Part shown: in pieces, positions 1 through 60,742 of the stretch
How the letters are laid out: every line of letters starts with the position of its first letter
How positions within the stretch are numbered: position 1 is the first letter of the stretch
Origin: a phage
Length of the DNA stretch: 64,000 nt
Direction: 5' to 3' (one strand)
NCBI GenBank assembly: GCA_020619395.1
Contig: GCA_020619395.1_4860.1
Notes under the pieces: model-generated
The model's database searches: none
What the model was told of the DNA's origin: nothing
What the model saw: the letters and a program-made list of their open reading frames with translations, nothing else
Position numbers and translations under genes: made by a program

Positions 1-126
1 GCCATTAGCCAGAGTGAGCAGATTGATAGTTTTCATTTTCATATTCCTTAAGTGATGGTCGGTTAAAAGATTACCAATGCAATCTCACCTAGGTAATATA
101 TATCTGAAATCTTTTCTAATCTGAGA

Positions 127-24541: not shown

Positions 24542-26647
24542 TTACAACTCAATTACCACAGCGGCTCCTAGGTCATCGTACAACGATGCCGGGATTTTGT
24601 ACTCGGTATAAAAACCAACGCGATCGATATTCCCCTGCTGTCCTTCAAACAACAACATCGGAATTGCCGAGCGCAAACTAATGAGCGTGTTGTGATCGAC
24701 AAACCGTTTCCCGGTGGCATTAGTAGAATCCTCACTGTCAAATCCTACTGCCGGGAACGGATTGGTTGGTGACTCTACACGAGATATCGCCAACATAATC
24801 GCAATGTGCGTCATCGGTATACCGCTCAGCTTACGCTGGATGTACTTAAACGTATCCATCAACGCATAAGTACACTGTTTCTCTGTAGCACCACCCATTT
24901 CAACCAACGTTACCGGTTTCACACGACCTTGTTTCTTGTTCAACTTCACAGTCGAGGCTGTGTTGATGATTTCCACAATGTCTTCGTTCTTATCGGCTGC
25001 GATTGAACGTAGCTTGGTTTCTAACCCTGCCACGAATTCTGCCATCGATTCAGAACGGTTGGTGTAGACCAGTACCGGGTGTTTCGGGTTCCATCCTTTC
25101 AAAGGAATCTGAACCGTCTTCTTCTCGATACGAATGTTCGCACGTTGTTTCAAGAAGTAATGCAAGAACGGTTTAGAGAAGTTCCCACAAACACCCATTC
25201 GCACATCGATAGAATCTGCAGCGATGATTTGCCCATCTTCTAAACGACGCTGGAATGTCAAGTCGGTGATTTCCGGCAATGCTGTTTCATCGATTGCATC
25301 GAGATCTTCATGATACGCAATCTGGCTCAGCTCCGAATAAACTTTGTCGGTAACGACCAACTCGTATTCTGACCAATTACCACGCTGTGGTTTTGGTAGC
25401 AAGCACAACCCTTTCAGAGAGTTATGTTTGTATTCGGTCATGTACTCACGCATTCTCGGCGTGAGTACCAGGTTGAGCAGATAACGCAAGAAGTCAAGGT
25501 GCTTGGTAGAGAGAATTCCCTGTGTACCCTTTTCCGAGATGGACGTGGACGCCAGGTGACCTGGTGACGTACCTTCAGAGAGGTTATAAATCAAATCCCC
25601 CATACAGGTCGCACAGATGGACTGATTCGCCATCTCTTTACAGGTCATGGCACTACGGAAGACCAGCGGTTTGCCAACCAGGTCTGCGTATCCGCCTTTC
25701 TCAAATCTCAACCACGGACCATTATCACCTTCTAAACGATAACGCATCCCCACCATCGCTTTATAGGCACGCTCATCCAGCTGCGTATCCTTAAACGTGT
25801 AGCGGTGTGCGTGAGTTGTACCGCAGTCGTCGTACGTGAAATACATCAGTACGTTTGCTGCCAACTGCAGTTTACGTGAGGCGTATTCTGCTTCGGCAAT
25901 CTTGTCAGTGTTGTACAAGTGGGAACGTGAAGTTGCACCGGATTCTTTCAAACGCGAAATAACCGAGTGCATTCCGGTAAAGAAGCCTTCCCACACCTGA
26001 TTGGTGTATACACGTGAGTCAATTTCTGACGTTTTACCACGCACGAAGGCTTGCAGTACCTGGTTCATCTTCACAGTACCGTCCAGTACCGACATCACGA
26101 CCGGGTTATACCGTAGCGCAGGGTCTTTGAAGATTTTCTCGATAAGCTTGTACGCTTCTTCAACCATATCCCGACCATCTTCATCGTAGCCAGTAGGATA
26201 TTGCACTTCCCACTGACGGATGAGTTCGAAGTTCGGATGGTCGTAGATCTCCATCATCGTATCAAAGTCGATTGTCGTACAATAGGACAGCAAGTTCTTC
26301 ACTGTCATGTTGAACGCATCGGCGTAGACATGTTGACTCAGGATATAACGCGTTTCAGCAAGGTCGACGCCTGCTTTACGGGCCAGTACCGCTGCTTCCG
26401 ACATAAAGTCCAGATGCAGGTCATCTGTTGCTACCTGACCTGGACGATACGCCATGGTCGATGGAGTGGGCACCTGCGGATACAGACGCGACACACCCCA
26501 ATACGGCCAGCTGAGTTTGATGTGGCGACTAGACATTTCCAACGACTTACCATCGTCGAATGTCACGTAATAACGCCCGCGTAGTTTCCACACCTGATCA
26601 GAGTTAAGCATACGCAAATCACGTACGTGTACAGAACGACCCGCCAT
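24542..26647 (-). CDS. multisubunit RNA polymerase beta-prime-like, C-terminal part (candidate)
   Basis: 701-aa ORF directly downstream of the beta-like gene; SEKGTQGILSTKH resembles the beta-prime trigger-loop motif E-P-GTQ-L-T-M-R-T-F-H (recalled); the rest is unassigned. Confidence 0.45.
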   Translation of the reverse strand: MAGRSVHVRDLRMLNSDQVWKLRGRYYVTFDDGKSLEMSSRHIKLSWPYWGVSRLYPQVPTPSTMAYRPGQVATDDLHLDFMSEAAVLARKAGVDLAETRYILSQHVYADAFNMTVKNLLSYCTTIDFDTMMEIYDHPNFELIRQWEVQYPTGYDEDGRDMVEEAYKLIEKIFKDPALRYNPVVMSVLDGTVKMNQVLQAFVRGKTSEIDSRVYTNQVWEGFFTGMHSVISRLKESGATSRSHLYNTDKIAEAEYASRKLQLAANVLMYFTYDDCGTTHAHRYTFKDTQLDERAYKAMVGMRYRLEGDNGPWLRFEKGGYADLVGKPLVFRSAMTCKEMANQSICATCMGDLIYNLSEGTSPGHLASTSISEKGTQGILSTKHLDFLRYLLNLVLTPRMREYMTEYKHNSLKGLCLLPKPQRGNWSEYELVVTDKVYSELSQIAYHEDLDAIDETALPEITDLTFQRRLEDGQIIAADSIDVRMGVCGNFSKPFLHYFLKQRANIRIEKKTVQIPLKGWNPKHPVLVYTNRSESMAEFVAGLETKLRSIAADKNEDIVEIINTASTVKLNKKQGRVKPVTLVEMGGATEKQCTYALMDTFKYIQRKLSGIPMTHIAIMLAISRVESPTNPFPAVGFDSEDSTNATGKRFVDHNTLISLRSAIPMLLFEGQQGNIDRVGFYTEYKIPASLYDDLGAAVVIEL

Positions 26648-28884
26648 TATTTATCCTCCCGAATTGGACGCACTAATTCAAAACCTTCACAGCGATGGAT
26701 GTTACGTATCATCCTGTCAATCTGCGAATCTCCCATTGGCAGTTTCTTACGATCGACCAGCACCCCCGGATTGGTTGGTGTTGGCGAGTTATACAGCCCC
26801 GTTACGATCGCACGGTGTACCGCAGGGTTATTAGCGCGGTCATGAGTTTCGGGGAAGTTGCCCGGACCAAAGCCGTCGGTAAGACGCTGCTCGGAAGGAC
26901 CACCCCACTTCAACCCTTTCAGGTTAATCGGATATGAACCACGTCCTTGGTTGGATGCATCAATACAACCCAAATAGTTCGTGTACATCGACGAGATACT
27001 GGAGAACTCACGACCGGTTTTATCCAGGCGCAGAGTCTCTACCATGCCGACGTAGAACTGGTTCTTCGTCCACTCTTTCTCACCCTGATAGTTAGTAATC
27101 AGTAGCTTAGACTTGCGTGGTGCATACTCGCCTAGAGCACGGCAGATTTCTACCTGGGTGGCATTCAATTCGTGGGGAAGCCAGATACGAATCGTGAAGT
27201 CGTAAATCTCTTTAAAGAGTTCCAGACGTGACTCAGTATCTGGGTGACTGGCATTGAGATAGAATGTCCAGCGTGGGTTATAGCGATCGATATAGTCCAT
27301 CAGGATTTCCCAGGCTTCATCAACCTGGTTGGCAGCAAGTAATGGTTTCAACCGCATCTTCAACTGCTCGGATGCAGCAGACCAATACATGTGGAACAGC
27401 GCAGCATAAGTCGAACGACGAATTACGGCGTTCATGGAACGAATGACATGCACACGTTCTCCGAACTCGTTAATCGGCATTTCTTCATCAGGCCGCACTG
27501 CACCCACGATACCTTTTGTACCTGAACGGTCGGTGATTTTCGATGAGACGGTAACTGGGATTGGATAACGTACCACGATGCGTATCGTGTAACTACCAAT
27601 TGGGTCCCAGAGACCACGCTGAACCGGCTGCGCCAGTTTGTTTAACACGTTCTTATCAGCAGAACGGTTATACTCGCCTTTGCGCATGGCTTCATCGTAT
27701 TCACGACCAATCTCTTCACGGAAGTCGTTATAGACTTCATACGTCTCAGAACAGAACGCCTTGTCAAGAATCTCAAACGCTTTCGGTGACCAGACAATAT
27801 TCTTGTCCTTGGACATCGCAAAATAGAACCGCACGATATCATTGTAAAAACGTTTCAAAGCGTTCGCGTAGTGATCTAACTCGCGTTTGTTCTCTTCGGT
27901 ACATGCGATATTGTTAACACCACGATCGCATTTGGTTTCGTCCCGCCATACCTGAATATCAACGACACGAGAACCAGTACGTTCCATCTTTTCAAAGTCG
28001 CCAGCCTGACGCGCTTTGTAATGCTCAGGGTCAGCATCAACATACTCACAACGGTCGAAGTGCGGAGAGATATGTTGTGTTTCACCTACGTGCGAGTCAA
28101 TGGCTGCCCATAGCTTATCGAAACGGCGCGCGGCAATAACCAACCCATCATCACGAATTGCCTGTCCTTTATTGGGCAGGTACTGTGGTCGACGAACGCC
28201 ATCAATACCCGTTGTCCCATACGTATCAAGCAGGTACTCGTCGTCGCGCAAGGTAAAGTCGATTGCACGCAAACCATAAGCGTGCATCGCTTTCGCTGCA
28301 GTTTCGGAGATGGTGTACGAGTCCTCGATAATGTCCGGGTGCGACATTGTCACAGTGTGCAGGTTGACCCCATCGACAAACTCACCGTCTTTCTGTGCCG
28401 GCAGTACGGTAAGCATTTCATCTTTTTCCAGGTGCTGCGTCTGCCCGCGCAGCAACGCCTGAAGTTTCCCAGTAGCCTCTTTCTTAGACGAGAAAATGTT
28501 ATCGTGGTTGGTGTAATACTTAATATCGATTACATCAATCATCACTTTGCGCTGGTTGGTTAAATCTGCGCGCGTGAAGAAGATAACATGCTGGAGCGGT
28601 TCGTGATCCCCTTCACGACCATAGCGTGCAAAAACAGCTGCACGAGTAACACCTTCTTTGGTTGTGTAACTGCACACGGTACCACTGTCTTCCACGATAT
28701 CGTTAAAACAATAATCGTGGTAGTTCACATCAGCGCCGGTAAAATGGATAGTCGGATCTGGATTGTCCAGTGGTACCGCCGACTTCATATGTCCACCCAC
28801 CATTGAGGCACGTGCCCCAGATACGCCAGTGATATTCACCTCACGGTCAGCAACGCTTGACATGAGTTCGACTGGTGTTTTCAT
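26647..28884 (-). CDS. multisubunit RNA polymerase beta-like subunit (C-terminal catalytic part)
   Basis: 745-aa ORF; ITDRSGTKGIVGAVRPDEEMPINEFGERVHVIRSMNAV lines up with the bacterial beta motif GDK-x-AGRHGNKGV-x(5-6)-EDMP-x(3-5)-G-x-x-VD-I-V-LNPLGV (recalled from E. coli RpoB). Confidence 0.7.
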   Translation of the reverse strand: MKTPVELMSSVADREVNITGVSGARASMVGGHMKSAVPLDNPDPTIHFTGADVNYHDYCFNDIVEDSGTVCSYTTKEGVTRAAVFARYGREGDHEPLQHVIFFTRADLTNQRKVMIDVIDIKYYTNHDNIFSSKKEATGKLQALLRGQTQHLEKDEMLTVLPAQKDGEFVDGVNLHTVTMSHPDIIEDSYTISETAAKAMHAYGLRAIDFTLRDDEYLLDTYGTTGIDGVRRPQYLPNKGQAIRDDGLVIAARRFDKLWAAIDSHVGETQHISPHFDRCEYVDADPEHYKARQAGDFEKMERTGSRVVDIQVWRDETKCDRGVNNIACTEENKRELDHYANALKRFYNDIVRFYFAMSKDKNIVWSPKAFEILDKAFCSETYEVYNDFREEIGREYDEAMRKGEYNRSADKNVLNKLAQPVQRGLWDPIGSYTIRIVVRYPIPVTVSSKITDRSGTKGIVGAVRPDEEMPINEFGERVHVIRSMNAVIRRSTYAALFHMYWSAASEQLKMRLKPLLAANQVDEAWEILMDYIDRYNPRWTFYLNASHPDTESRLELFKEIYDFTIRIWLPHELNATQVEICRALGEYAPRKSKLLITNYQGEKEWTKNQFYVGMVETLRLDKTGREFSSISSMYTNYLGCIDASNQGRGSYPINLKGLKWGGPSEQRLTDGFGPGNFPETHDRANNPAVHRAIVTGLYNSPTPTNPGVLVDRKKLPMGDSQIDRMIRNIHRCEGFELVRPIREDK

Positions 28885-28913: not shown

Positions 28914-28930
28914 AAGATAATATCTATCTG
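28914..28930. promoter_or_regulatory. recurrent AGATAATATCTATCT-type promoter-like motif
   Basis: aagataatatctatctg between divergent starts 28884 (-) and 28951 (+); same motif family as 32657, 34073, 42181, 42274, 50184, 53150. Confidence 0.3.
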
Positions 28931-32404: not shown

Positions 32405-34039
32405 TTAAGAATTAAACCATTCAACTTCTTCTAACTTGCGACGTGCATTCAACACCATAAACTCCGCCAGGCTATTGTGCAGTGACAAGTGAGGTATATA
32501 GTTTGGCTGATCCGTCTCACACTTCAGCAGCGCAGCTGCTTCTGGTGTAGCCCTGAGATGGAACAGATACGGGTTGATGTGATCCTTGTGTAACAAGGTC
32601 AATGATTCCCGTGGTGTAGATTGCGGTTCGAGATTACGCGGGTTGCGATACTCCTGAAGATAATATCTATCTAAATCTGCTTTGAGTTCAGATCGAATTG
32701 GGTCGGCTGCATAACCGGCAGACATCTCAGAACGCACCATATTGCAACTTAACAGTTGCGCAACGTCATACATTCCATAATTGAGATAAGTTGCCTGTGC
32801 CAACGCCATACCGTAGCGAAACGCTTCTGGTCCACATTCAGTATACGTCTTATAATGCGCGCTACGATGGAGTGCTAATGCGACTAACCATTCGTGCAAC
32901 GTATAGACAGGACCGTCATGTGTTGCCAGTTGCGAATCAATCAATAACTTAACATCTGCTGGAGCGGCATTATCCAGACGCATTGTTTTCAAGAAAGAGC
33001 GGTATTCTTTAAATACGTACTCGGTACGGACGTATTCTTTCATCTGTGCAGGAGAACGTGCCTGCACCAAATCCATGGCGTTTATCTTACCCTTTTCGCC
33101 ATTGAATACCACACTTTCCGGATGCGCTTTTAACAGCACCGGCTGGTTAGAGATTTTGTTTGCAAAACCTGTTTCAATCTCTTGTTTAACCAGAAAATAC
33201 ATGCCGGTGACGATATTGTTGTTAACCATGATTTCAACCGGTAATTCACCACCGACTTCACGGACAGCCAACAATTTAATAATAGCATACGCCAGGATAT
33301 AATCTTCCATCATATCCGTGCCATAGCCCCGCACCGTAGCCAGTACCGACAAACTGGTGCTGTTCGTACCTTTGTTTGCCAGTTCTTTTTCTACCTTTTC
33401 CATCACTGTCTGTAGGAACCCACGCAGTTTCGGAATAGCAGGTAAAGACATGACTTCCGTGTCTTGAAGCATCTCCAGACAGTATGTCAGATTGTACACC
33501 ATTTTCCGGTGTGTTTCGATTGGCAAGTTCTTACCTATCGGGAACGTCCCCATGGTGAGGAACACCGGAATATACGGTTTAATCATCAGGACCAGTATCA
33601 ACAACTCGTAATAGTCCGGACGAATGTACGTCATCGCTTCCGGATAATTACTGTTCATTTCATCGTGCGTATCTTCCATGTTCTGCGGAATCCACAGCTT
33701 ATCGATGGGATACAGCTTACGATACACTTCGGCCTTGTGGAACTTCGCAATCGTCTGCACAATCTTCGGCATGTGCTTACGCTGCGTTTCCGTCGATTCG
33801 TTTGCCAGCTCGTCCAGCATCAGATACGCCATGAACAGTTCATCTTGTTCGTCTGGCGTTAAATAATCCCACACGCGTTGTAATTCCATGAAGAGAATGT
33901 TGTCGCGTGCAATCTGTTTACCTTTAACAGTGATGTAGTCGGGTGCGTTGTTATCCTTCCGATAACGTAAGCCAATAAATGTGACCTCTTGACCATGATG
34001 CTCGATTGTCATCCGGTCTTTAATCTTCATAATTTTCAT
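32405..34039 (-). CDS. hypothetical protein
   Basis: 544-aa ORF; promoter-like motif 26-40 bp upstream (34073-34089). Confidence 0.6.
   Translation of the reverse strand: MKIMKIKDRMTIEHHGQEVTFIGLRYRKDNNAPDYITVKGKQIARDNILFMELQRVWDYLTPDEQDELFMAYLMLDELANESTETQRKHMPKIVQTIAKFHKAEVYRKLYPIDKLWIPQNMEDTHDEMNSNYPEAMTYIRPDYYELLILVLMIKPYIPVFLTMGTFPIGKNLPIETHRKMVYNLTYCLEMLQDTEVMSLPAIPKLRGFLQTVMEKVEKELANKGTNSTSLSVLATVRGYGTDMMEDYILAYAIIKLLAVREVGGELPVEIMVNNNIVTGMYFLVKQEIETGFANKISNQPVLLKAHPESVVFNGEKGKINAMDLVQARSPAQMKEYVRTEYVFKEYRSFLKTMRLDNAAPADVKLLIDSQLATHDGPVYTLHEWLVALALHRSAHYKTYTECGPEAFRYGMALAQATYLNYGMYDVAQLLSCNMVRSEMSAGYAADPIRSELKADLDRYYLQEYRNPRNLEPQSTPRESLTLLHKDHINPYLFHLRATPEAAALLKCETDQPNYIPHLSLHNSLAEFMVLNARRKLEEVEWFNS
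32657..32673. promoter_or_regulatory. intragenic copy of the AGATAATATCTATCT-type motif
   Basis: gaagataatatctatct inside the 3' end of CDS 32405..34039, about 265 bp upstream of the start of 30692..32392. Confidence 0.25.
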
Positions 34040-34072: not shown

Positions 34073-34089
34073 GAGATAATATCTATCTC
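34073..34089. promoter_or_regulatory. AGATAATATCTATCT-type promoter-like motif
   Basis: gagataatatctatctc in the intergenic region upstream of minus-strand start 34039. Confidence 0.3.
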
Positions 34090-38602: not shown

Positions 38603-40198
38603 TTAGCCCATCACCGCTTCCAACGGAATGCCTTCTTCATCATCCTCATCTGCTTCAATAAGGAACTGGTTCTGCATACTGATTAGCTCGTTATGTAAAA
38701 CCATGCCGTGTTCTACGCGGTCCACATCAGTAGAAGACATAAAGCCGTTATCTGGACGGAATTGGAGTGCCAACTTCATCTCAGTTTCATCGACTGGCAA
38801 ACGTACCTGGAACTGGTCGCCATCGAAATCTCCATTTGCCATCTTGATCACACGGTCAGAGATACGCAGCGAACACTGGTTAACATCGGTAACAACTTCA
38901 TCGATGTACAGCGTTTGAATAGACAACTGTACCAGCGTTGGGTTACGTAACGGTATGACCATGATCCCAAGACCGCCTGGGGATTCACGAATCAGTTCTT
39001 TAAAGATTTCATCTACAAGCGGGTCATACTGCATTGCCGCTTTCGCAACGATACGTTCACACTGCCGTGACGAATAACCGCGTCGTAGCAGTTTGTTCTC
39101 GATGTGGGTCGACATCAACCCAACCATCCAACGCCATGGTGCTTTTAACTTCCAGGCATCATGTGGTTCTGAGATAGGTGAGATGGTTGCACGACCACCG
39201 AACGGGATATGGGTAGAACCCAATTTCGCACGATAGTCACCCGGTTTACCTTCCATAGACTCACGACGGAAGTCCATGTGGAAGTACGTTAACTGACGGT
39301 TCGCCTTCAAAGCGCGACTAATCAGAAAACGTGGTTCGATCGCTTTACGCCGCGTATAGAGCAACGCGATATTTTTCACCGCATCAATAGCACCCGTGAA
39401 CACTGGGTCTACCATGACACCACGACGACCTTCCTCAGTAACGATAAGTTTAGAGGAGATTAGCGGTAAGTGTCTTGGGAAGAATGCGTGACGTTGCGTT
39501 TCGAATAGCTCCTTCCATTGTAAACGTAAGCGTTCACCTTCAGCGGCGTTATGCCGATTAGGTGCGAAGATTTCCTTCCAGGCTTCTGGCGTGGTAAGGA
39601 TGTTAAAGATACTAACGTGGTTATCAACCAGATTGCGCAAGCCACGAACGAAACCGTGTTCTTCCAATACACGTTTCACAGCATGTGCGCGTTTACCGTC
39701 TGGTTCTTCTATACGGTAATACGGGTCAATCATCCACATCATCAAGTCATTACCGCGTTCGATAGTGACCTTGTTACGTTCAAACTTCTTCAACTTGCTA
39801 TTAAAGAAAGCATTGAACATTGCCCAGAATCGTGGGTTGACGAAGTTACCCATTTCATCAGGTGCACGTAACCAGACATCGGATTCAATTCGATGTTCAG
39901 TTACAACATAGCCACACGTCGGACACTTACAACCGAGATTGTAACGATGCGCGATCGGTGCCGGACAATCCAAACTACAAATCGGTGCAGAGTTCAGTTC
40001 TTCGTCAACGATTCTGTTCTGTACCATGCGATCGATAAGTTCAGCAACTTCGATCGCATCCCCGTTAACGGCGACATCGTTAATAATAGTGGGTGGTTTA
40101 ATACCTTTGGCTGCAGCTTCTATTTGCAAATCGGACAAATAGTTATCCTGACTAACCAACCGGCCGGATATTCCGTAGAATTTTGGTACCTTTCTCAC
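38603..40198 (-). CDS. multisubunit RNA polymerase beta-prime-like subunit, N-terminal part
   Basis: 531-aa ORF with N-terminal zinc ribbon (CSLDC ... LGCKCPTCGY), LRNPTLVQLS (resembles conserved beta-prime NRQPTLHRLG) and catalytic MANGDFDGDQ (NADFDGD-type Asp triad). Confidence 0.75.
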   Translation of the reverse strand: MRKVPKFYGISGRLVSQDNYLSDLQIEAAAKGIKPPTIINDVAVNGDAIEVAELIDRMVQNRIVDEELNSAPICSLDCPAPIAHRYNLGCKCPTCGYVVTEHRIESDVWLRAPDEMGNFVNPRFWAMFNAFFNSKLKKFERNKVTIERGNDLMMWMIDPYYRIEEPDGKRAHAVKRVLEEHGFVRGLRNLVDNHVSIFNILTTPEAWKEIFAPNRHNAAEGERLRLQWKELFETQRHAFFPRHLPLISSKLIVTEEGRRGVMVDPVFTGAIDAVKNIALLYTRRKAIEPRFLISRALKANRQLTYFHMDFRRESMEGKPGDYRAKLGSTHIPFGGRATISPISEPHDAWKLKAPWRWMVGLMSTHIENKLLRRGYSSRQCERIVAKAAMQYDPLVDEIFKELIRESPGGLGIMVIPLRNPTLVQLSIQTLYIDEVVTDVNQCSLRISDRVIKMANGDFDGDQFQVRLPVDETEMKLALQFRPDNGFMSSTDVDRVEHGMVLHNELISMQNQFLIEADEDDEEGIPLEAVMG

Positions 40199-40280: not shown

Positions 40281-42134
40281 TTACAGTTTGAAGTTGCTCA
40301 GAGACACGCCCAGACCGAAATCGGAACCGCTTGCAGACAGGCCGTTGCCAGACAGCGTGAAGTCTTCCCCACCGTTGTTGAAGAACAGAGAGGTCGCCAT
40401 CGTGTTGTAGGCATTTACACCAGTCATAGACCAGGTGCAGTTGTTACGGACGAAGTCCAGCAGGCATTTACCGAAGATCGGGTTGATAGCCATATCCAGA
40501 GATTCACCGGTAGCTTGCGGTGCTTTGGATGCGAACAGAGAAGCGGCCAGTTTCAGCATGTAGATACGCTGTTGACGCTCGTTCAGTTCACGGTGGCTGT
40601 AGGACTGTGCGTTCAGGTAGCTATAGACGTCGTTCGCGTTATCACCCAGTTTGGTAACAACGGAAATCAGGTCCATATCCTGGAAGCTACGTTTCTGTGC
40701 AGTACCGGTGTAAACACCGGAAACAGTCGGTACGGCTGCTTTCACGATGTGGCTGCAATGGATGGTACCATTGAAGGCATCGCCCAGCTGTGCTTTCAGT
40801 GCAGAAGCAAATACTGCAGTGAAGCTGGTCGCTGCAACAACTTCGCCGTTCTGATCACGCGGGGACATGGAATTCAGAATAGCGAGCAGCTGTTTCAGAG
40901 AGTTGTCGTAACCGACCGCAATTTCAGACAGCATAGTAGACAGACCACCCAGACCGTTACCGGCACGATGGCTAACTACCAGTGCTGCTTCACGCGGTGC
41001 GAACATATCCAGGCAACCTTCGATAGCTTCACGGCTACCGTCGATTTTGGATACATCAGGACGAGCGTCAGCACCCCAGGACAGGTATTCTGCCACACGG
41101 GAGAACTTGCGATCTTGTTTGTTCAGACGTTTCACAAACAGGTCACGCCAGCCACCGATTGCCGCGATTTCTGCAAATGCAGCCAGCAGCAGCAGTTGAC
41201 GTTCATACGGTGCCATTGCACCTTCAGTTTGAGAATCGACCAGACTTACTACGATTTCAGCCTGCAGCTGTTTCAGGTCGTAGACGCCGTTAACGACAGG
41301 CTTCTGACCGGTGAAACGCATGTTGACGAAACCAGTACCGGATACACGCGGATACACCTGTACCTGATTGGTGTCCAGCAGAGTCGGAGTGGCGTCGGAT
41401 ACGTTGCTTGGGCTGTGCTCAACGGTGATTGCGAAATCAGCACGTTGTGCGTGGCCGTTAGCATCCACAACCGCACCATCTTCCAGCGGCATTACTGCAG
41501 CCTGATAACGGTCATGCTTACGCAGGTTCAGCGTACCCAGGTAGCCTGCGATACGACCGAAGATGCCCATCATCATCTGACCCATCAGAGTACGTGCCCA
41601 CTCAGCATCCAGAACTTTACCCAGGTCTGGTACGGAGTTGATGATCATGAAGTTCGCATTGGTCAGACCATGCGCTTCCATGATGTTTTTCTGTACTACT
41701 GCCAGCACGTCTTTGTTGAACAGTTCAGTGATGGTGTAGTAGTCTTCCTGGCCGTTGTTGGTAGTTTCTTTCAGACGCAGAGACTGACCGCGTTCAAAGA
41801 AGATAATACCGTACAGCCAGTGGCCCTGCCATTGGCCTGCGACATACGCCGCGGAACCCATTTCGTTACCCACGCCGGCGATGGTGCCCCAGCGGAACGC
41901 GTTGAGGTATTCGTTGCTTTTCTTCAGCTCGTCCAGGAGGTTGACGAAGTGCATTGCATAGGTGCTGATGTTGCGGATGCCAAATGCGTTATCGAATTGG
42001 CTGACAGTAGAAGTACCCGGCACAGCAGTTTGCACTTTTACAGTCTCGTTGCCCAGACCGCCCAGTGGTGCGGTGTCTTGAGTCTGAGTGTTGTTCTGCT
42101 GAGCGTTGTTGTTAGAGTCAACGATTTTTACCAT
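40281..42134 (-). CDS. abundant-protein candidate: phage nucleus shell protein (chimallin-like); alternatively a major virion protein
   Basis: 617-aa ORF with no enzymatic motifs, own promoter-like motif and terminator; sits immediately upstream of the beta-prime N gene, the arrangement recalled for phiKZ shell protein gp54 next to nvRNAP gp55. Size fits chimallin (about 600-700 aa). Inference only. Confidence 0.4.
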   Translation of the reverse strand: MVKIVDSNNNAQQNNTQTQDTAPLGGLGNETVKVQTAVPGTSTVSQFDNAFGIRNISTYAMHFVNLLDELKKSNEYLNAFRWGTIAGVGNEMGSAAYVAGQWQGHWLYGIIFFERGQSLRLKETTNNGQEDYYTITELFNKDVLAVVQKNIMEAHGLTNANFMIINSVPDLGKVLDAEWARTLMGQMMMGIFGRIAGYLGTLNLRKHDRYQAAVMPLEDGAVVDANGHAQRADFAITVEHSPSNVSDATPTLLDTNQVQVYPRVSGTGFVNMRFTGQKPVVNGVYDLKQLQAEIVVSLVDSQTEGAMAPYERQLLLLAAFAEIAAIGGWRDLFVKRLNKQDRKFSRVAEYLSWGADARPDVSKIDGSREAIEGCLDMFAPREAALVVSHRAGNGLGGLSTMLSEIAVGYDNSLKQLLAILNSMSPRDQNGEVVAATSFTAVFASALKAQLGDAFNGTIHCSHIVKAAVPTVSGVYTGTAQKRSFQDMDLISVVTKLGDNANDVYSYLNAQSYSHRELNERQQRIYMLKLAASLFASKAPQATGESLDMAINPIFGKCLLDFVRNNCTWSMTGVNAYNTMATSLFFNNGGEDFTLSGNGLSASGSDFGLGVSLSNFKL

Positions 42135-42180
42135 TTTAAATATTCCTTAATAGTGATTGCAATCATAGTTCGGTTCGCAG

Positions 42181-42194
42181 AGATAATATCTGCC
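42181..42194. promoter_or_regulatory. AGATAATATCT promoter-like motif upstream of the chimallin-candidate gene
   Basis: agataatatctgcc, 47-60 bp upstream of minus-strand start 42134. Confidence 0.3.
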
Positions 42195-42273
42195 TGTAAT
42201 TTCATGGAATGCAAGTACGCCGTCGCTTACTTACAAGGCACATAGTCCAGACATTTCTCAGGAACTGTCACAT

Positions 42274-42288
42274 AGATAATATCAATCT
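42274..42288. promoter_or_regulatory. AGATAATATC promoter-like motif upstream of + gene 42320
   Basis: agataatatcaatct, about 32-46 bp upstream of ATG 42320. Confidence 0.3.
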
Positions 42289-42319
42289 GAGATATTTTTG
42301 ACTGTGACTGACTTCCTAT

Positions 42320-43408
42320 GTGGAATCTAAGGAGTCTGCCATGTTCAGCCAAGCCGAGTTAAACCAAGTGGCCATAAAGGGTCACAGCACGGACCCCTCC
42401 GCTATAACATTAGCGGCTCACGTAAAAAACAACAGCCAGCGTATACGCAACTACTACGAACAGCTTAATCGCAGTGCTGGTAATGGCCATTTGTTGCAAC
42501 AGGTGTTGTCTGCCATCGGCTATGCCGGTGAACCAGAGTACGAAGACATCGAATGGGCTTGCCGTCGCAAGCTTGTTCAGATTGGTAACGCCTTACGCTT
42601 GACGTCTGTTGGTGAGTACGGTCAAATCTTTAATAGCAAGTTTATCCAGGGCCAAGATGAGGTAATCTCTCTCGTAGCCCGCCCAGTAAATCCAGACCTT
42701 TCGTTCCGCGACTACACCCCCGCCCGTTACCTCTACCATGAGTATACCAACCTCAATTGGAAGTTCGGTGACGGACGGCCCCGAGGTGTTACGGTGATCG
42801 AAATCAACCTGGTTGCTTTGCTTTGGCAATATGTCAAAGGTCAGCAACACTACAGTCGCGGTACCGAACCTATTGCCACACCTGTGTATCTCCAACGACA
42901 TGTGATCTCTCGCATGTTGCCGAGCTACATGGATATCGCCTTTGTAAATATACATCGTGCGATAGCCTTCGGGAAAGAGATTGAACCGGATGAAACATTA
43001 CGTGTCATTCCTGTTCCACCGCTTCAAGCTTTAGCTGTGAAGCACGCAAAAGGCATCCGTAGTAAACTACTGGCTGCCAACCCGTTACCGGGACAAGTCT
43101 TAAACAACATCCCATTGTTCTTCCAACACCCTGATGAAGAAGGCCACACAGCACTGGAACTGATTGTCTTTCGAGAACCAGGTCAAACACTGCAGAACAC
43201 CTGGCACCAGAACATGGTGAACTGGTACTGGGCACTGTTTTGTCTTCAATACAACCAGGGGAATATGGAAAAGCATAAACGTACGATGTTGGTTGATTTG
43301 GCGCGTTATGTGGACTCTAAAGTCCTCACACGTCTGACCAAATCCTTCTATAACTTTATCCAACGGGATTTGATTATCCCGTTGACGACAGAGCTAGAAG
43401 AAAAATAA
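42320..43408 (+). CDS. hypothetical protein
   Basis: 362-aa ORF with AAGGAG Shine-Dalgarno upstream; terminator downstream. Confidence 0.6.
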   Translation: MESKESAMFSQAELNQVAIKGHSTDPSAITLAAHVKNNSQRIRNYYEQLNRSAGNGHLLQQVLSAIGYAGEPEYEDIEWACRRKLVQIGNALRLTSVGEYGQIFNSKFIQGQDEVISLVARPVNPDLSFRDYTPARYLYHEYTNLNWKFGDGRPRGVTVIEINLVALLWQYVKGQQHYSRGTEPIATPVYLQRHVISRMLPSYMDIAFVNIHRAIAFGKEIEPDETLRVIPVPPLQALAVKHAKGIRSKLLAANPLPGQVLNNIPLFFQHPDEEGHTALELIVFREPGQTLQNTWHQNMVNWYWALFCLQYNQGNMEKHKRTMLVDLARYVDSKVLTRLTKSFYNFIQRDLIIPLTTELEEK

Positions 43409-49272: not shown

Positions 49273-49923
49273 TCATTCAATATCCTGACGTATGCCGTCG
49301 AGGCAATGTGATCGATCAGTACCAGACGGACGATATCGTTTGTTTGGGAAGCATTGGCGGTAGTGGATGAATCTGATGTCTTCTCCAATTTGTAACTCCA
49401 GAGATTGCACCTGCCCACGACGGGTTATGTGTGGTTCCAGTTTAATCGTCGCATAACGATTAAACGGGTGTTTGGCGGCTTTCACAGCATTCTCCACAAG
49501 CGCATGGATACTGTCCAGGAAACTGTTGTAACAGTCTTCGAATGCTAATCCGATAAGATATTCGGTAGAACGTAAAATCGCTACGGTCTCTTTCGTCTTA
49601 TTAACCGGAGTACCCAAACCGCCACTGGAAACGTGTGTACGTTCCACAGGAACTGTTTTCGGTGGAAGTATGATCTGGTCAGCCACCAACATCATCGTGA
49701 GATTAAAAGCGTCAGTATAAGGTTCCAGCAAAGGTTCCATACGTGCATTAGGCATTTCCGGAACGGAGTAAAAGATATCTTCGAGCGCAGTGTGTAACAG
49801 TTGTACAGTTAACATCTCGCGTTCTTTTTGGCTCATCCGCAGAGCGGTAGCGTACTGGGAAGCATCGACAGGCCCCCAGAAGCTAGAATGAACCGCAGCT
49901 GGTTCGAGGTATATTCTGACCAC
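49273..49923 (-). CDS. hypothetical protein
   Basis: 216-aa ORF. Confidence 0.5.
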   Translation of the reverse strand: MVRIYLEPAAVHSSFWGPVDASQYATALRMSQKEREMLTVQLLHTALEDIFYSVPEMPNARMEPLLEPYTDAFNLTMMLVADQIILPPKTVPVERTHVSSGGLGTPVNKTKETVAILRSTEYLIGLAFEDCYNSFLDSIHALVENAVKAAKHPFNRYATIKLEPHITRRGQVQSLELQIGEDIRFIHYRQCFPNKRYRPSGTDRSHCLDGIRQDIE

Positions 49924-50153
49924 GTTTGCACAACTCCATTTTTGTAATGAAAGGGATAGCTATGGTTTCGGCCCAACGCCGAAATAACAAACCACGCTTC
50001 CGTGCCAAAATAACTTTCGGCAATGCGTGTCCACTCGCGTGGAAACTCATGCGTGCCGGGATAAATGACTTCTTGTATCGCGCACAGTAACATGTCCGCA
50101 GGCACAATCTGTTCATTTGTCCCTGGAGAGAAATTAAAGAACATGCGCGTCAT
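49833..50153 (-). CDS. hypothetical protein (first gene of the operon)
   Basis: 106-aa ORF; promoter-like motif 31-45 bp upstream; overlaps 49273..49923 by 91 nt so one of the two starts is probably wrong. Confidence 0.4.
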   Translation of the reverse strand: MTRMFFNFSPGTNEQIVPADMLLCAIQEVIYPGTHEFPREWTRIAESYFGTEAWFVISALGRNHSYPFHYKNGVVQTWSEYTSNQLRFILASGGLSMLPSTLPLCG

Positions 50154-50183
50154 CGAGAAATGCTCCTTAAGGATAATTCACGA

Positions 50184-50198
50184 AGATAATATCTATGC
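50184..50198. promoter_or_regulatory. AGATAATATCTAT promoter-like motif
   Basis: agataatatctatgc in the divergent region between minus start 50153 and plus start 50317. Confidence 0.3.
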
Positions 50199-50316
50199 AA
50201 AATTTCTTCGAGTATGGTGCGCACATAAAGGTCGTAAAACGTATTTTAATGTCAGGCAATGGGATAGCATTACCCGATGGTATGAGTTGTCCTACGAGCT
50301 TCATAGGAGCCTTAGA

Positions 50317-51129
50317 ATGAATGTTATCGACTACTGTCTGCGTAAAATCAGACAGCATATTCCTGCCCCGATTCTACAGGCGGCTTTTGTTCCAGAAAAC
50401 CTCAAGTTACTGGGAATTGCAAGCTCTGTAGATAACGAAATCCAACAACGTGTTATTCGTGAGATTCTGGTCCCTGAAATCTCCAGAATGGGGCAGTATC
50501 AAGAAGTAGATTTGCAAGGTGTCCCTTGGGATAACGACACGCAAGATTATTTCAGTCGCGTGTATTATCTCGACGACATCAAAACAGGCGGTCGTCCTAT
50601 TCTGGATGCCCACATTTCTGTAACACCCGTTGCCGGACAGGCGTACACCATGCCTCCCGCAGGTTCATATCTGGACGGTGCCACCTCTGGCGTATTAGCA
50701 TCCACCCAGCAAGTGGTTGATAGTCAGTCGGCGATGCCACGTATCGCCTCACCAGAGGTCGAGGTACTCGGCCCGAATACCATCCGTATCAAAGACCCAG
50801 GCATGTTCGTTTACTCTACCAAACTCGTGGTGAAGTACGAACTATCCCAGGAGATGAACGAAATCAAACCAGCATTCTATCCGGTTGTAGGTGAGCTGGC
50901 AGTCATGGCTGTTAAGCAATATATTTACAACACCATGATCTTCGACATGGATTCCGGTAAACTGGAAAATGGTATGGAGTTCGGTGCCTTCAGAAACGTT
51001 ATTGAAGGTTACTCGGACGCGGGTCAAATGTTCGAAGACACCTTACCGAAAATGCAACGTTGTCTGGTCCACAACGACAACATCGGAAACCGTTGGAACT
51101 ACATGAACGGTGGACGCTTCAAGTCGTAA
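50317..51129 (+). CDS. hypothetical protein
   Basis: ORF-track 50065..51129 trimmed to ATG 50317 (MNVIDY...), which has AGGAG 8 nt upstream and leaves room for the divergent promoter region. Confidence 0.5.
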   Translation: MNVIDYCLRKIRQHIPAPILQAAFVPENLKLLGIASSVDNEIQQRVIREILVPEISRMGQYQEVDLQGVPWDNDTQDYFSRVYYLDDIKTGGRPILDAHISVTPVAGQAYTMPPAGSYLDGATSGVLASTQQVVDSQSAMPRIASPEVEVLGPNTIRIKDPGMFVYSTKLVVKYELSQEMNEIKPAFYPVVGELAVMAVKQYIYNTMIFDMDSGKLENGMEFGAFRNVIEGYSDAGQMFEDTLPKMQRCLVHNDNIGNRWNYMNGGRFKS

Positions 51130-51184
51130 CAAAAAAAGAAAGATTCCGTACCTCTACGCGAGTAGAGGTACTTCTTCTTTTTTA
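51129..51184. terminator. bidirectional rho-independent terminator
   Basis: Hairpin 51148-51171 (gtacctctac / gcga / gtagaggtac) with A-run 51129-51140 and T-run 51172-51183. Confidence 0.65.
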
Positions 51185-51571
51185 ACCGGCAACACCCAAC
51201 ACATCCTTAAGATGGTGGGTAATGCCTGACGTCCACGCCTCACCTTCACGCACGATTTCTGGTTGAGCGTTAACCAGTCGGCGGAGAGAAATTGTGTGTT
51301 CCGCTAAACCCGCTACTGGGAACACAGGCGGAACGGTGGCTTGTTTAACATAATCGACGACATCATCAAAGCCTTCGTTAGAAGACCAATCGATTTCTAC
51401 GCCGTCGCAGACATCTAATTGACGCGTGTTGTTCTCTTCATCGGGGTGGAAAGTAAAACCCCATTGAATAGTATCCAGGAGACCACGGTCAAGTTCGTTG
51501 ACCACTTTAATTTTCTTGAGGGTATCCGGATGCGCCATAATCACGTCCAGCGGACGCAGTTTGTTTTTCAT
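51182..51571 (-). CDS. hypothetical protein
   Basis: 129-aa ORF. Confidence 0.5.
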   Translation of the reverse strand: MKNKLRPLDVIMAHPDTLKKIKVVNELDRGLLDTIQWGFTFHPDEENNTRQLDVCDGVEIDWSSNEGFDDVVDYVKQATVPPVFPVAGLAEHTISLRRLVNAQPEIVREGEAWTSGITHHLKDVLGVAG

Positions 51572-51638
51572 CGAGCATCTCCTTTGGAATCTATTACAGC
51601 ACAGACTCCCTACAAGATAGGTGCCTGCCGTAAAAAAG

Positions 51639-52055
51639 TCAGTGTAAGGTTCCGAGGGTTTTATAGTGTTTATAATTCATTGCGTGGATGCTGTCTAACA
51701 CAATGGCGAATACTTCCTCATAAGGTAGTCGTTTCTGCATAACTGCAGCGCACATCGAATCGAATAAAGAAGGCATTAGCTGCGGCATTTCATTTATCGC
51801 CGACGATTCGCTACGGGATAAACACTCGCTTGTATTTATTGTTGGTGTGTCTGACCCAGTGTAGATAGCCACAACATCTACCACATCTAGCGAGTCGAGC
51901 CACGGTTGGAATTGAGGCAACTGCATTAGCACCGGAAAGACCTCACTTGCAAGCATTCTTGAATAACTGCACTGCGGTCTTAAAGTCGTGGGTAGCTTAT
52001 TTTCTTCCAATGCTTTAAATAAATCTTGCGTCTGGTAATAGCACTGCGTAATCAT
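51639..52055 (-). CDS. hypothetical protein
   Basis: 138-aa ORF. Confidence 0.5.
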   Translation of the reverse strand: MITQCYYQTQDLFKALEENKLPTTLRPQCSYSRMLASEVFPVLMQLPQFQPWLDSLDVVDVVAIYTGSDTPTINTSECLSRSESSAINEMPQLMPSLFDSMCAAVMQKRLPYEEVFAIVLDSIHAMNYKHYKTLGTLH

Positions 52056-52091
52056 GGTAACTTCCTCCTATAAGATTCTGAGGCAGTCGTG

Positions 52092-52128
52092 AAAAAAGAA
52101 AAAAAAAAGAGGGAACCGAAGTTCCCTC
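52092..52128 (-). terminator. rho-independent terminator after CDS 52143..53090
   Basis: Hairpin 52109-52128 (gagggaac / cgaa / gttccctc) with a 17-nt + strand A-run 52092-52108. Confidence 0.6.
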
Positions 52129-52142
52129 AAAAGCATCGACTA

Positions 52143-53149: not shown

Positions 53150-53164
53150 AGGTAATATCTATCT
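53150..53164. promoter_or_regulatory. GTAATATCTATCT promoter-like motif
   Basis: ggtaatatctatctg, 60-75 bp upstream of minus start 53090. Confidence 0.3.
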
Positions 53165-60670: not shown

Positions 60671-60742
60671 TGGGTAAAATCTCCTTCAGGTATACTCTCA
60701 GTATGATAACATATATCCGTAAATTTTTAGAGGTTTAGTGCC

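What the first reader, a model, noticed from the sequence alone, without database searches (positions are those of the whole stretch)
42181..42288. Recurrent AGATAATATCTATCT-type motif upstream of gene starts (candidate phage promoter)
Near-identical copies lie at 28914-28930, 32657-32673, 34073-34089, 42181-42194, 42274-42288, 50184-50198 and 53150-53164, mostly 25-75 bp upstream of start codons and often in divergent intergenic regions. The motif is partly palindromic (AGATA...TATCT), so it may act in both directions or bind a dimeric regulator.
Basis: seen in the sequence. Interest (0 to 1): 0.45.

Follow-up and report, generated by a model that had tools for sequence, protein, structure and literature searches.

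The report
Early promoters of a jumbo phage

Summary
All seven listed copies exist, two more lie at 91-105 and 60704-60718, and the 15-mer is about 10-fold over chance. The window is a SPN3US-like (Seoulvirus) jumbo phage. In the whole SPN3US genome a PWM finds 23 sites at 32-50 bits; nothing else exceeds 18 bits. All 23 are on the gene strand, 22 are intergenic (p~1e-25), and most lie 30-100 nt upstream of a start codon. The core, its flanks and its positions are conserved at orthologous genes in five relatives from four genera. The motif is homologous to the TSS-mapped phiKZ early promoter (TATATTAC): the SPN3US-trained PWM recovers five of six mapped phiKZ early promoters within 1 nt. The flagged interval holds two tandem copies upstream of chmA (chimallin) and an nvRNAP subunit gene. 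All four nvRNAP genes sit in motif-headed operons; no vRNAP gene does. The palindrome is incidental, so the dimeric-regulator and bidirectional ideas are not supported. This is a known kind of element and of modest interest. No RNA data exist, so start sites and polymerase identity are inferred.

The parts
42181..42195 (-). Proximal early promoter core of chmA (reads AGGCAGATATTATCT on the minus strand). Predicted +1 is the G at 42176, giving a 42-nt leader to the ATG at 42134.
   Evidence: 35.7 bits. Invariant island in the six-phage alignment. Start-site geometry taken from phiKZ TSS data.
42274..42288 (-). Distal early promoter core of chmA (AGATTGATATTATCT). Predicted +1 is the G at 42269, giving a 135-nt leader.
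   Evidence: 44.0 bits. Both tandem copies are conserved in all five relatives.
40281..42134 (-). chmA (chimallin, phage-nucleus shell protein; SPN3US gp22 orthologue), the first gene driven by the flagged promoters.
   Evidence: 66% identical over its full length to Asesino gp039, which was shown by GFP fusion to form the nuclear shell (PMC11724907). Synteny with PHIKZ052(-)-054-055. No direct BLASTP or PDB sequence hit to phiKZ gp54.
38603..40198 (-). nvRNAP beta'-N subunit gene (SPN3US gp23 orthologue), the second gene of the chmA operon.
   Evidence: Pfam RNA_pol_Rpb1_2 and PHROG 'RNA polymerase beta subunit'. Asesino gp040 is nvRNAP beta'1. It is not among the virion RNAP subunits gp42/218/240/241/244.
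28915..28929 (-). Early promoter core upstream of the nvRNAP beta / beta' genes (gp34-gp35 orthologues). Predicted +1 at 28910; ATG at 28884.
   Evidence: 33.2 bits. Conserved upstream of the orthologous RNAP gene in all five relatives.
26647..28884 (-). nvRNAP beta subunit gene (SPN3US gp34 orthologue).
   Evidence: Pfam RNA_pol_Rpb2_6 and PHROG 3295. The adjacent gp35 is the nvRNAP beta' C-terminal part.
34074..34088 (-). Early promoter core upstream of the gp30 orthologue (ATG 34039). Predicted +1 at 34069.
   Evidence: 37.6 bits. Conserved in all five relatives.
32658..32672 (-). Intragenic early-promoter core inside the gp30 orthologue, 265 nt upstream of the gp31 orthologue ATG (32392). 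Predicted +1 at 32653.
   Evidence: 36.3 bits. The 13-nt core GATAGATATTATC is invariant in six phages, including four synonymous codon positions (GAT AGA TAT TAT), while the flanking codons diverge.
50184..50198 (-). Early promoter core upstream of the gp9 orthologue (ATG 50153). Predicted +1 at 50179.
   Evidence: 40.2 bits. Conserved in all five relatives.
53150..53164 (-). Early promoter core upstream of the gp5 orthologue (ATG 53090). Predicted +1 at 53145. It is followed by a 5'-terminal hairpin (53144-53126) and preceded by an intrinsic terminator (53225-53202).
   Evidence: 46.8 bits. Terminator. Hairpin.
91..105 (-). Early promoter core (AGATATATATTACCT, which contains the phiKZ word TATATTAC) upstream of the gp55 orthologue (ATG 36). 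Predicted +1 at 86.
   Evidence: (45.3 bits). Terminator hairpin at 167-144 upstream; 5' hairpin at 86-67 downstream.
60704..60718 (-). Early promoter core (GGATATATGTTATCA) upstream of the gp263 orthologue (ORF 59537-60670, ATG 60670). Predicted +1 at 60699.
   Evidence: (39.1 bits).
42341..43408 (+). Divergent neighbour gene (gp21 orthologue), probably a late head-protein gene. It is not part of the early regulon.
   Evidence: Weak homology to the phiKZ structural head protein gp52 (E=3e-8) and conserved synteny.

Best explanation
The motif is the core of the early-class promoter of SPN3US-like jumbo phages, and is the counterpart of the phiKZ early promoter. It acts on the gene strand (the window minus strand). 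The promoter is an asymmetric element of about 35 bp. It has a near-invariant A at about -29, a T-run then C at -23 to -20, and the 15-mer AGATAGATATTAYCT at -19 to -5. The inner TA(G/T)ATATTA(T/C) of that 15-mer (-14 to -7) corresponds to phiKZ TATATTAC. Initiation is at a conserved G (+1) followed by A, 5 nt past the 15-mer. By analogy with phiKZ, the multisubunit virion RNA polymerase (orthologues of SPN3US gp42/218/240/241/244) is injected with the DNA and recognises these sites without host sigma factor. It transcribes about 23 early units. In this window these include chmA with nvRNAP beta'-N (two tandem promoters, which are the flagged interval) and nvRNAP beta with beta'. Making chimallin and the second polymerase early then allows nucleus formation and middle/late transcription. 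SHOWN here: recurrence, strict strand and intergenic bias, position relative to start codons, conservation at orthologous sites in four genera, and sequence and geometric homology to TSS-mapped phiKZ early promoters. INFERRED: the exact start sites in this phage, early timing, and that vRNAP rather than host RNAP is the enzyme.
For: (1) Enrichment: 10 matches against 1.08 expected in the window. (2) Whole SPN3US genome: 23 sites at 32-50 bits and nothing else above 18 bits; 23 of 23 on the gene strand; 22 of 23 intergenic in a genome that is 6.4% intergenic (binomial p=1e-25). Distances from the motif end to the ATG are 30-139 nt for 21 sites. (3) Asymmetric conserved flanks: A 94% at PWM position -9, and G 94% / A 82% at the 5th and 6th nt after the 15-mer. 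The predicted +1 is G in all 38 orthologous promoters examined. (4) Footprinting: in Asesino, pEa_SNUABM_29, pSal-SNUABM-04, Caitlin and Wellington every hit above 20 bits is on the gene strand. The hits sit upstream of the orthologues of gp5, gp9, chmA (both copies), gp30 and gp34. In the chmA upstream alignment the two cores are invariant islands. (5) Homology to phiKZ: TATATTAC is the top intergenic-only 8-mer in phiKZ (7 intergenic, 0 genic) and occurs verbatim in the strongest SPN3US sites. Measured phiKZ early TSSs lie 7-8 nt after its final C. The SPN3US-trained PWM's best hit in 50 kb of phiKZ is the PHIKZ054 (chimallin) early promoter. It recovers 5 of the 6 mapped early promoters there, with predicted TSSs of 45582, 29412, 23599, 44936 and 2175 against measured 45583, 29413, 23599, 44937 and 2176. 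(6) Architecture: conservation at the -10, -20 and -30 regions is how phiKZ and 201phi2-1 early promoters are described (PMC11512511; PMC8244752). (7) Gene logic: all four nvRNAP genes (gp23, gp34, gp35, gp77) are first or second genes behind a site. chmA has two sites. None of the five vRNAP genes, the major capsid gene or the tail sheath gene has one. (8) Terminators lie immediately upstream of sites 1 and 8, marking transcription-unit boundaries. (9) The review PMC7598289 states that such a motif can be found upstream of early operons in every RNAP-encoding jumbo phage, and that it proved to be the early promoter wherever it was tested.
Against: There are no transcript 5'-end data, timing data or rifampicin data for SPN3US or this phage in anything I could access, so the start sites, the early class and the enzyme all rest on homology. 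The inner hexamer TATTAT is a 5-of-6 match to the sigma-70 -10 element with the same spacing to the start, so use by host RNAP cannot be excluded from sequence alone. In 201phi2-1 not all nvRNAP genes have a nearby early promoter, so the gene-logic argument is suggestive rather than universal. Because 231 of 264 SPN3US genes are on one strand, the strand bias relative to gene strand alone is only p~0.05. The stronger argument for orientation is the asymmetric flanks and the low reverse-strand scores.
Confidence: 0.85

Rival explanations
1. These are host sigma-70 promoters of the '-10 only' type. Salmonella RNA polymerase would recognise the TATTAT hexamer and transcribe the phage early genes, as it does in most phages.
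For: TATTAT matches TATAAT at 5 of 6 positions, and the conserved G lies 7 nt downstream of it, which is the normal sigma-70 spacing. Wicke et al. call the phiKZ early motif an 'extended -10 box'. Rifampicin independence has not been shown for SPN3US.
Against: There is no -35 element. The positions 17 nt upstream of the hexamer are poorly conserved and are not TTGACA-like, and there is no TG extension. The sigma-70 scanner calls none of the motif copies in 41900-42500 or 49900-53400. About 20 positions are conserved well beyond a -10 hexamer, including in phages with different hosts (Salmonella, Erwinia). The homologous phiKZ promoters are used independently of host RNAP and of protein synthesis.
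Confidence: 0.07
2. The palindromic core AGATA-N-TATCT is an operator for a dimeric phage or host regulator, or a bidirectional promoter serving both genes of divergent pairs.
For: The 11-nt core is a perfect palindrome in 11 of 23 SPN3US sites. Six sites lie in divergent intergenic regions. At gp220/gp221 the reverse reading scores 17.9 bits and lies 31 nt before the gp220 start.
Against: The seven highest-scoring sites (AGATATATATTACYT) keep only 3 of 5 dyad pairs, so symmetry is not selected. The conserved flanks are asymmetric. Reverse readings score 18 bits or less against 32-50 bits forward. Seventeen of the 23 sites have no opposite-strand gene to serve. The divergent gene at the flagged locus has its own invariant TATG-containing block and is homologous to a head protein, which points to late expression.
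Confidence: 0.05
3. The motif is a middle- or late-class promoter read by the non-virion RNA polymerase.
For: Temporal class has not been measured in this phage. In 201phi2-1 some nvRNAP genes are served by middle promoters.
Against: phiKZ middle promoters (TACT at about -22 after an A-run) and late promoters (T-3 A T G+1) look quite different. The motif matches the early class specifically. It heads the nvRNAP genes themselves, which cannot depend solely on nvRNAP. Structural genes lack it and instead carry tAGTATGa-type words.
Confidence: 0.03

Closest known systems
phiKZ early promoters (virion-RNAP dependent; Ceyssens 2014, Wicke 2021, Putzeys 2024)
   Same: They share the core word TATATTAC at -15 to -8, the upstream AGAT and an A/T-rich, T-run region, and a start at a purine 7-8 nt after the C. 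Conservation is at -10, -20 and -30. They sit upstream of the chimallin gene and of nvRNAP genes. An SPN3US-trained PWM finds the mapped phiKZ sites within 1 nt.
   Different: The consensus differs in detail. Here most sites read AGATAGATATTATCT, with G and T replacing T and C of the phiKZ word, which creates an 11-nt palindrome. The start region is a conserved GTGA, against TTGA or variable in phiKZ. In this phage chmA has two early-type promoters in tandem, whereas phiKZ gp54 has one early and one or two middle promoters. There is no experimental mapping here.
201phi2-1 early promoters (ONT-cappable-seq, PMC11512511)
   Same: The same class and the same -10/-20/-30 architecture. Regulatory elements keep their positions relative to homologous genes across genera.
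   Different: In 201phi2-1 several nvRNAP genes lack a nearby early promoter. Here all four nvRNAP genes sit directly in motif-headed operons.
AR9 early promoters (Bacillus jumbo phage, vRNAP)
   Same: An AT-rich, highly conserved motif of about 10 nt centred near -10, first predicted bioinformatically and then confirmed as the early promoter.
   Different: A different consensus, a uracil-containing genome, and a phage that does not form a nucleus. It is only distantly related.
Bacterial sigma-70 '-10' element
   Same: A TATAAT-like hexamer about 7 nt upstream of the start.
   Different: There is no -35 or TG extension, far more conserved positions than in a -10 element, and presumed independence from sigma factor.
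N4 virion RNAP promoters
   Same: They are used by an injected virion polymerase for early genes.
   Different: N4 uses a single-subunit RNAP that recognises a DNA hairpin upstream of the start. Here the hairpins are downstream of +1, occur at only about 45% of sites, and are presumably RNA features.

Membership tests
phiKZ-type early (virion-RNAP) promoters of Chimalliviridae | A highly conserved AT-rich core of about 10 nt centred near -10, homologous to phiKZ TATATTAC | tested here: met
   The core TA(G/T)ATATTA(T/C) is present in all 23 SPN3US sites and all 9 window sites. Exact TATATTAC is present in 7-8 sites. TATATTAC is the top intergenic-only 8-mer in phiKZ.
phiKZ-type early (virion-RNAP) promoters of Chimalliviridae | Additional conserved elements at about -20 and -30 (T-rich / A-rich upstream region) | tested here: met
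   PWM: A 94% at about -29, T/T/T/C at -23 to -20, AGAT at -19 to -16. Described for phiKZ and 201phi2-1.
phiKZ-type early (virion-RNAP) promoters of Chimalliviridae | Cross-recognition: a model of one phage's sites finds the other phage's mapped early promoters | tested here: met
   The SPN3US PWM recovers phiKZ P001, P012, P017, P025 and P028 (5 of the 6 early promoters in the first 50 kb), with predicted TSS within 1 nt. Its top hit is the chimallin promoter.
phiKZ-type early (virion-RNAP) promoters of Chimalliviridae | Transcription starts 7-8 nt downstream of the core | not testable with these tools
   No RNA data are available. Indirect support: G is invariant at the predicted +1 in 38 of 38 orthologous sites, and 5'-hairpin starts peak exactly at that offset.
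phiKZ-type early (virion-RNAP) promoters of Chimalliviridae | Lies upstream of early operons, including nvRNAP subunit genes and chmA; absent from virion and structural genes | tested here: met
   Sites head gp22(chmA)-gp23, gp34-gp35 and gp76-gp77. There are none before gp42, gp218, gp240, gp241, gp244, the major capsid gene gp75 or the tail sheath gene gp256. Timing itself was not measured.
phiKZ-type early (virion-RNAP) promoters of Chimalliviridae | The phage carries a virion-packaged multisubunit RNAP | tested here: met
   The window is 99% identical to SPN3US-group phages. The SPN3US vRNAP subunits gp42/218/240/241/244 were found in heads by mass spectrometry (PMC5105663).
phiKZ-type early (virion-RNAP) promoters of Chimalliviridae | Use is independent of host RNAP (rifampicin) and of new protein synthesis | not testable with these tools
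   Shown for phiKZ, AR9 and PBS2 only. No data for SPN3US were found.
Sigma-70 host promoter | A -35 hexamer 16-18 nt upstream of a TATAAT-like -10 hexamer (or a TG extension) | tested here: not met
   None of the motif copies is called by the sigma-70 scan. The PWM columns at the -35 position are not TTGACA-like, and there is no TG.
Operator of a dimeric DNA-binding regulator | Dyad symmetry conserved across sites, and occurrence independent of orientation | tested here: not met
   The best-scoring sites keep 3 of 5 symmetric pairs. All 23 sites share one orientation, and their flanks are asymmetric.
phiKZ-type late promoter (nvRNAP) | T-3 A T G+1 at the start site | tested here: not met
   The start region here is n-n-G-T-G-A with no TATG. 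TATG-type words occur instead upstream of structural genes.

The most novel reading that the evidence does not exclude
A subset of these early promoters is part of a longer conserved 'early expression cassette'. It consists of the promoter, then a stem-loop that begins exactly at the predicted +1 (its sequence varies but pairing is kept), then the leader word AATCGAC(T/C)ATTA at a fixed 28-31 nt from the ATG, then AAGGAG. This would be a dedicated post-transcriptional layer for early mRNAs. It might protect the 5' end against host RNases, or be a recognition tag for a phage or ribosome-associated factor during translation around the early infection vesicle. No such layer has been described for chimalliviruses in the papers I could read.
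Probability: 0.2. Interest if true: 0.45.

Novelty: new member of a known kind. Interest (0 to 1): 0.22.

Why it matters
It gives a concrete, testable map of the early regulon of the SPN3US group: 23 promoters in SPN3US and nine in this window, each with a predicted start site. This group is the main genetic model for nucleus-forming phages of enterobacteria. The map shows that chimallin and all nvRNAP subunits are wired directly to the injected polymerase. It also shows that the early-promoter code is conserved from Pseudomonas phiKZ to Salmonella and Erwinia phages, closely enough that one phage's model finds the other's mapped start sites. Practically, it supplies orthogonal promoter parts and improves annotation, including an intragenic promoter and probable mis-called start codons. 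It is not a new principle. The review literature already states that such a motif exists in every RNAP-encoding jumbo phage.

Tried and rejected
(1) I tried to identify gp22 as chimallin by sequence. phmmer against PDB gave no hit, Pfam gave none, PHROG gave 'unknown', and BLASTP against PHIKZ054 was not significant. The question was resolved through the 66%-identical Asesino gp039, which has been verified experimentally.

(2) Literal-string literature searches for TATATTAC and GATATTATCT returned only unrelated papers. The two primary papers (Lavysh 2016, Ceyssens 2014) are not held, so I could not check whether the SPN3US logo has already been published. The supplements of two other papers are not held either.

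(3) RNAalifold on a MAFFT alignment of the gp5-leader orthologues predicted no structure, because MAFFT cannot align stems whose sequence has turned over. Per-sequence folding shows the hairpin instead.

(4) Mean MFE of the predicted leaders is no lower than that of random genome windows. Only the specific feature 'hairpin starting at +1' is enriched.

(5) The conserved gp21-upstream word TTCCTATGTGGAA is unique in the genome, so it cannot be called a recurrent late-promoter motif.

(6) I considered bidirectional use of the palindrome and rejected it as the main function. It is not excluded at gp220/gp221.

(7) An Rfam scan of the flagged interval found nothing. A repeat scan of the interval found no additional repeat families.

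Full report
OBSERVATION

The sequence at 42181-42195 (AGATAATATCTGCCT) and 42274-42288 (AGATAATATCAATCT) is as described. Searching AGATAATATCTATCT with up to 3 mismatches gives 10 matches in the window against 1.08 expected, and none of 100 dinucleotide-preserving shuffles reaches 10. All seven listed copies are present within 1-2 nt of the stated coordinates. Nine of the ten matches are on the + strand, yet nearly all genes in this part of the window are on the minus strand. That was the first sign that the motif had been written on the wrong strand.

WHAT THE WINDOW IS

The window is 98-99% identical to SPN3US-group Salmonella jumbo phages (genus Seoulvirus) and is the reverse complement of the SPN3US record over roughly gp1-gp56 and gp259-gp264. 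These are nucleus-forming relatives of phiKZ. They carry two multisubunit RNA polymerases: a virion enzyme injected with the DNA (vRNAP; SPN3US gp42, gp218, gp240, gp241, gp244) and a non-virion enzyme (nvRNAP; it includes gp35 and gp77, and by annotation gp23 and gp34) (PMC5105663).

ORIENTATION AND GENOME-WIDE DISTRIBUTION

On the gene strand the motif reads AGATAGATATTATCT and lies 30-60 nt upstream of minus-strand start codons. I assembled the whole SPN3US genome with its 264 annotated genes and built a PWM covering the 15-mer with 15 nt upstream and 12 nt downstream.

- Scores are bimodal. There are 23 sites at 32-50 bits, and nothing else on either strand exceeds 18 bits.
- All 23 sites are on the gene strand.
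- 22 of the 23 are intergenic in a genome that is 6.4% intergenic (binomial p=1e-25).
- For 21 of them the distance from motif end to ATG is 30-139 nt.
- The reverse-strand hits that a simple mismatch search finds are palindromic shadows of forward sites.
- The extended consensus is asymmetric: A(94%)A-a-a-a-a-T-T-T-C AGATAGATATTAYCT n-n-G-T-G(94%)-A(82%).
- There are two flavours: AGATAGATATTATCT and AGATATATATTAC(C/T)T.

In the window the PWM finds nine sites (33-47 bits), all on the minus strand. They are the seven listed copies plus 91-105 and 60704-60718. The last lies 33 nt upstream of the ATG at 60670.

CONSERVATION

I fetched about 40 kb of the syntenic region from five relatives: Erwinia phages pEa_SNUABM_29 (Seoulvirus), Asesino (Erskinevirus), Caitlin (Machinavirus) and Wellington (Wellingtonvirus), and Salmonella phage pSal-SNUABM-04 (Machinavirus).

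- Every PWM hit above 20 bits is on the gene strand and sits upstream of the orthologue of gp5, gp9, gp22 (both tandem copies), gp30 or gp34.
- In an alignment of the whole divergent intergenic region upstream of gp22, the two motif copies are invariant islands in otherwise diverged sequence.
- The one intragenic copy (32658-32672) has a 13-nt core that is invariant in all six phages, including four synonymous codon positions, while the neighbouring codons vary. That argues for selection on the DNA itself, so this is probably an internal promoter for the next genes.

COMPARISON WITH phiKZ

The review PMC7598289 states that in each RNAP-encoding jumbo phage a conserved AT-rich motif of about 10 nt, centred near -10, can be found upstream of early operons. 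Wherever transcripts were mapped it proved to be the early promoter used by vRNAP.

- In the first 50 kb of phiKZ the most intergenic-specific 8-mer is TATATTAC (7 intergenic, 0 genic). This word occurs verbatim in the strongest SPN3US sites.
- The flanks also align. phiKZ P054 reads aaaaaaatttgAGATtTATATTACtaaatTGA. SPN3US reads aaaagatttcAGATaTATATTACctaggTGA.
- ONT-cappable-seq TSS coordinates for phiKZ (supplementary Table S3 of bioRxiv 10.1101/2023.10.13.562163) place the start 7-8 nt after the final C.
- Carried over to this phage, +1 is the conserved G 5 nt past the 15-mer. That base is G in all 38 orthologous promoters I examined.
- As a cross-validation, the SPN3US-trained PWM was run on phiKZ. 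Its best hit is the early promoter of PHIKZ054 (chimallin). It recovers five of the six mapped early promoters in that 50 kb, with predicted starts at 45582, 29412, 23599, 44936 and 2175 against measured 45583, 29413, 23599, 44937 and 2176.
- With +1 set this way, the conserved blocks fall at about -10, -20 and -30. This is how phiKZ and 201phi2-1 early promoters are described.

WHAT THE FLAGGED COPIES CONTROL

The minus-strand gene 40281-42134 (SPN3US gp22) has no detectable sequence similarity to phiKZ gp54 or to any PDB chain. It is, however, 66% identical over its full length to Asesino gp039. Asesino gp039 was shown by GFP fusion to form the phage-nucleus shell, so it is ChmA, or chimallin (PMC11724907). 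The next gene (38603-40198) is the nvRNAP beta'-N subunit. The local gene order matches phiKZ gp50-gp52(-)-gp54-gp55.

The flagged interval therefore holds two tandem early promoters of the chmA-nvRNAP operon. Their predicted starts are at 42269 and 42176, giving leaders of 135 and 42 nt. Genome-wide, all four nvRNAP genes are the first or second gene behind a site (gp22-23, gp34-35, gp76-77). None of the five vRNAP genes, the major capsid gene or the tail sheath gene has one. This is the expected wiring: the injected enzyme must make the second polymerase and the shell.

RIVALS

- Host sigma-70. The inner hexamer TATTAT and its spacing to the start resemble a -10 element. But there is no -35 or TG extension, the sigma-70 scanner calls none of the copies, and about 20 positions are conserved across phages of different hosts. 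This rival is not excluded experimentally, because rifampicin independence has been shown for phiKZ, AR9 and PBS2 but not for SPN3US.
- Dimeric regulator or bidirectional promoter. The 11-nt palindrome is perfect in 11 of 23 sites, but the best-scoring sites keep only 3 of 5 dyad pairs. The flanks are asymmetric, and 17 sites have no opposite gene. The divergent gene at the flagged locus (42341-43408) is a weak homologue of the phiKZ head protein gp52. It has its own invariant block TTCCTATGTGG (42313-42325), with TATG ending 21 nt before its ATG. TATG with a start at G is the phiKZ late-promoter signature.
- Middle or late promoter. The motif does not resemble either phiKZ class, and it heads the nvRNAP genes themselves.

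SIDE OBSERVATIONS

(a) Ten of 23 SPN3US sites are followed by a hairpin that starts within 2 nt of the predicted +1, against 12% of random G-start windows (p=1.6e-4). The distribution of hairpin starts peaks exactly at the predicted +1. In the gp5 leader the stem sequence turns over while pairing is kept: GAGATGAG/CTCATCT, GAGATTA/TAATCT, GATTAC/GTAATC. The chmA-proximal, gp9, gp30 and gp34 leaders have no such hairpin.

(b) Several leaders share AATCGAC(T/C)ATTA at a fixed 28-31 nt from the ATG, just before AAGGAG. The only clear copy in the window is at 34067-34056, and it is conserved in Asesino and pEa_SNUABM_29.

(c) tAGTATGa words are enriched upstream of genes that lack the early motif, including the tail sheath gene and other structural genes. 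The phiKZ late promoter P003 ends in the same word.

(d) An invariant GCGACGGC block lies between the two chmA promoters.

VERDICT

The element is real and is very probably the early (vRNAP) promoter of this phage group. It is a new member of a well-known kind, and was probably already seen in the bioinformatic survey of Lavysh et al. 2016, which I could not read. Interest is modest. The start sites, the timing and the enzyme are inferred by homology, not shown.

Noticed in passing
window 53144-53126 (-) and 86-67 (-); SPN3US (L002-L006) sites at 4441, 56308, 65427, 92554, 94253, 114000, 161933, 165701, 223291: A stem-loop starts exactly at the predicted +1 of about 45% of early promoters: 10 of 23 sites against 12% of control windows, p=1.6e-4. 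The hairpin-start offset peaks at the TSS predicted from phiKZ. The stem sequence differs between sites and between orthologues while pairing is kept (GAGAGTTA/TAACTCTC, GAGCGTTA/TAACGCT, GAGATGAG/CTCATCT, GAGATTA/TAATCT). It may be a 5'-end stabiliser of early mRNAs.
   Followed up: partly
window 34067-34056 (-); SPN3US 65455, 94280, 114030, 167592, 223318, 224197, 57146, 56335: A conserved leader word AATCGAC(T/C)ATTA lies at a fixed 28-31 nt from the ATG, immediately before AAGGAG-TATT. With one mismatch or fewer there are 7 intergenic and 3 genic copies, all on the gene strand. It does not always follow an early promoter (gp56, gp184, gp251). The window copy is conserved in Asesino and pEa_SNUABM_29. 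Its function is unknown.
   Followed up: partly
window 42313-42325 (+): TTCCTATGTGGAA is invariant in six phages from four genera. Its TATG ends at 42320, 21 nt before the ATG of the divergent gp21 orthologue (a homologue of the phiKZ head protein gp52). It matches the phiKZ late-promoter signature T-3 A T G+1. The extended word is unique in the SPN3US genome.
   Followed up: partly
window 42219-42226 (+ strand GCCGTCGC, = GCGACGGC on the gene strand): An invariant GC-rich 8-mer lies between the two tandem chmA promoters, about 24-31 nt upstream of the proximal 15-mer, in all six phages. A conserved TATGTG lies about 33 nt after the distal start. Neither is explained. They could be a regulator site, an extra promoter or a leader RNA element.
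   Followed up: no
SPN3US 64412, 138209, 158704(-), 161426(-), 229224(-), 238194(-); window 60700-60705 (+) and 50211-50216 (+): tAGTATGa words lie 13-38 nt upstream of genes that lack the early motif (gp65, gp160, gp170, gp173, tail sheath gp256, gp262). The 7-mer TAGTATG is seen 5 times against 0.13 expected in upstream regions. The phiKZ late promoter P003 ends in cAGTATGA. These are candidate late (nvRNAP) promoters. At 60700-60718 one overlaps an early promoter on the opposite strand.
   Followed up: partly
window 32658-32672 (-): This early-promoter core lies inside the gp30-orthologue coding sequence (it encodes D-R-Y-Y). Its 13 nt are invariant in six phages, including four synonymous positions, while the flanking codons diverge. 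It appears to be a coding sequence under a dual constraint, probably an internal promoter for gp31-gp32.
   Followed up: yes
window 53225-53202 (-) and 167-144 (-): Strong intrinsic terminators (10-bp GC-rich stems with TTCG loops and T-runs) lie 35-40 nt upstream of two early promoters. Together they form terminator-promoter junctions that delimit transcription units.
   Followed up: partly
window 34039 (ATG, -) versus SPN3US gp30 annotated start at 23886 (L002): The SPN3US record starts gp30 27 nt downstream of the ATG that is used in the window ORF and in the relatives' annotations. That upstream ATG lies at the cassette-typical 28 nt from the AATCGAC element. The SPN3US start is probably mis-called by 9 codons.
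   Followed up: no
L003:22500-22545 (SPN3US 72500-72545): One of the two early promoters downstream of the major capsid gene is followed after about 40 nt by a strong SD and ATG (ttaaggagacagtaATG) where no gene is annotated. This may be an unannotated small early ORF upstream of gp76.
   Followed up: no
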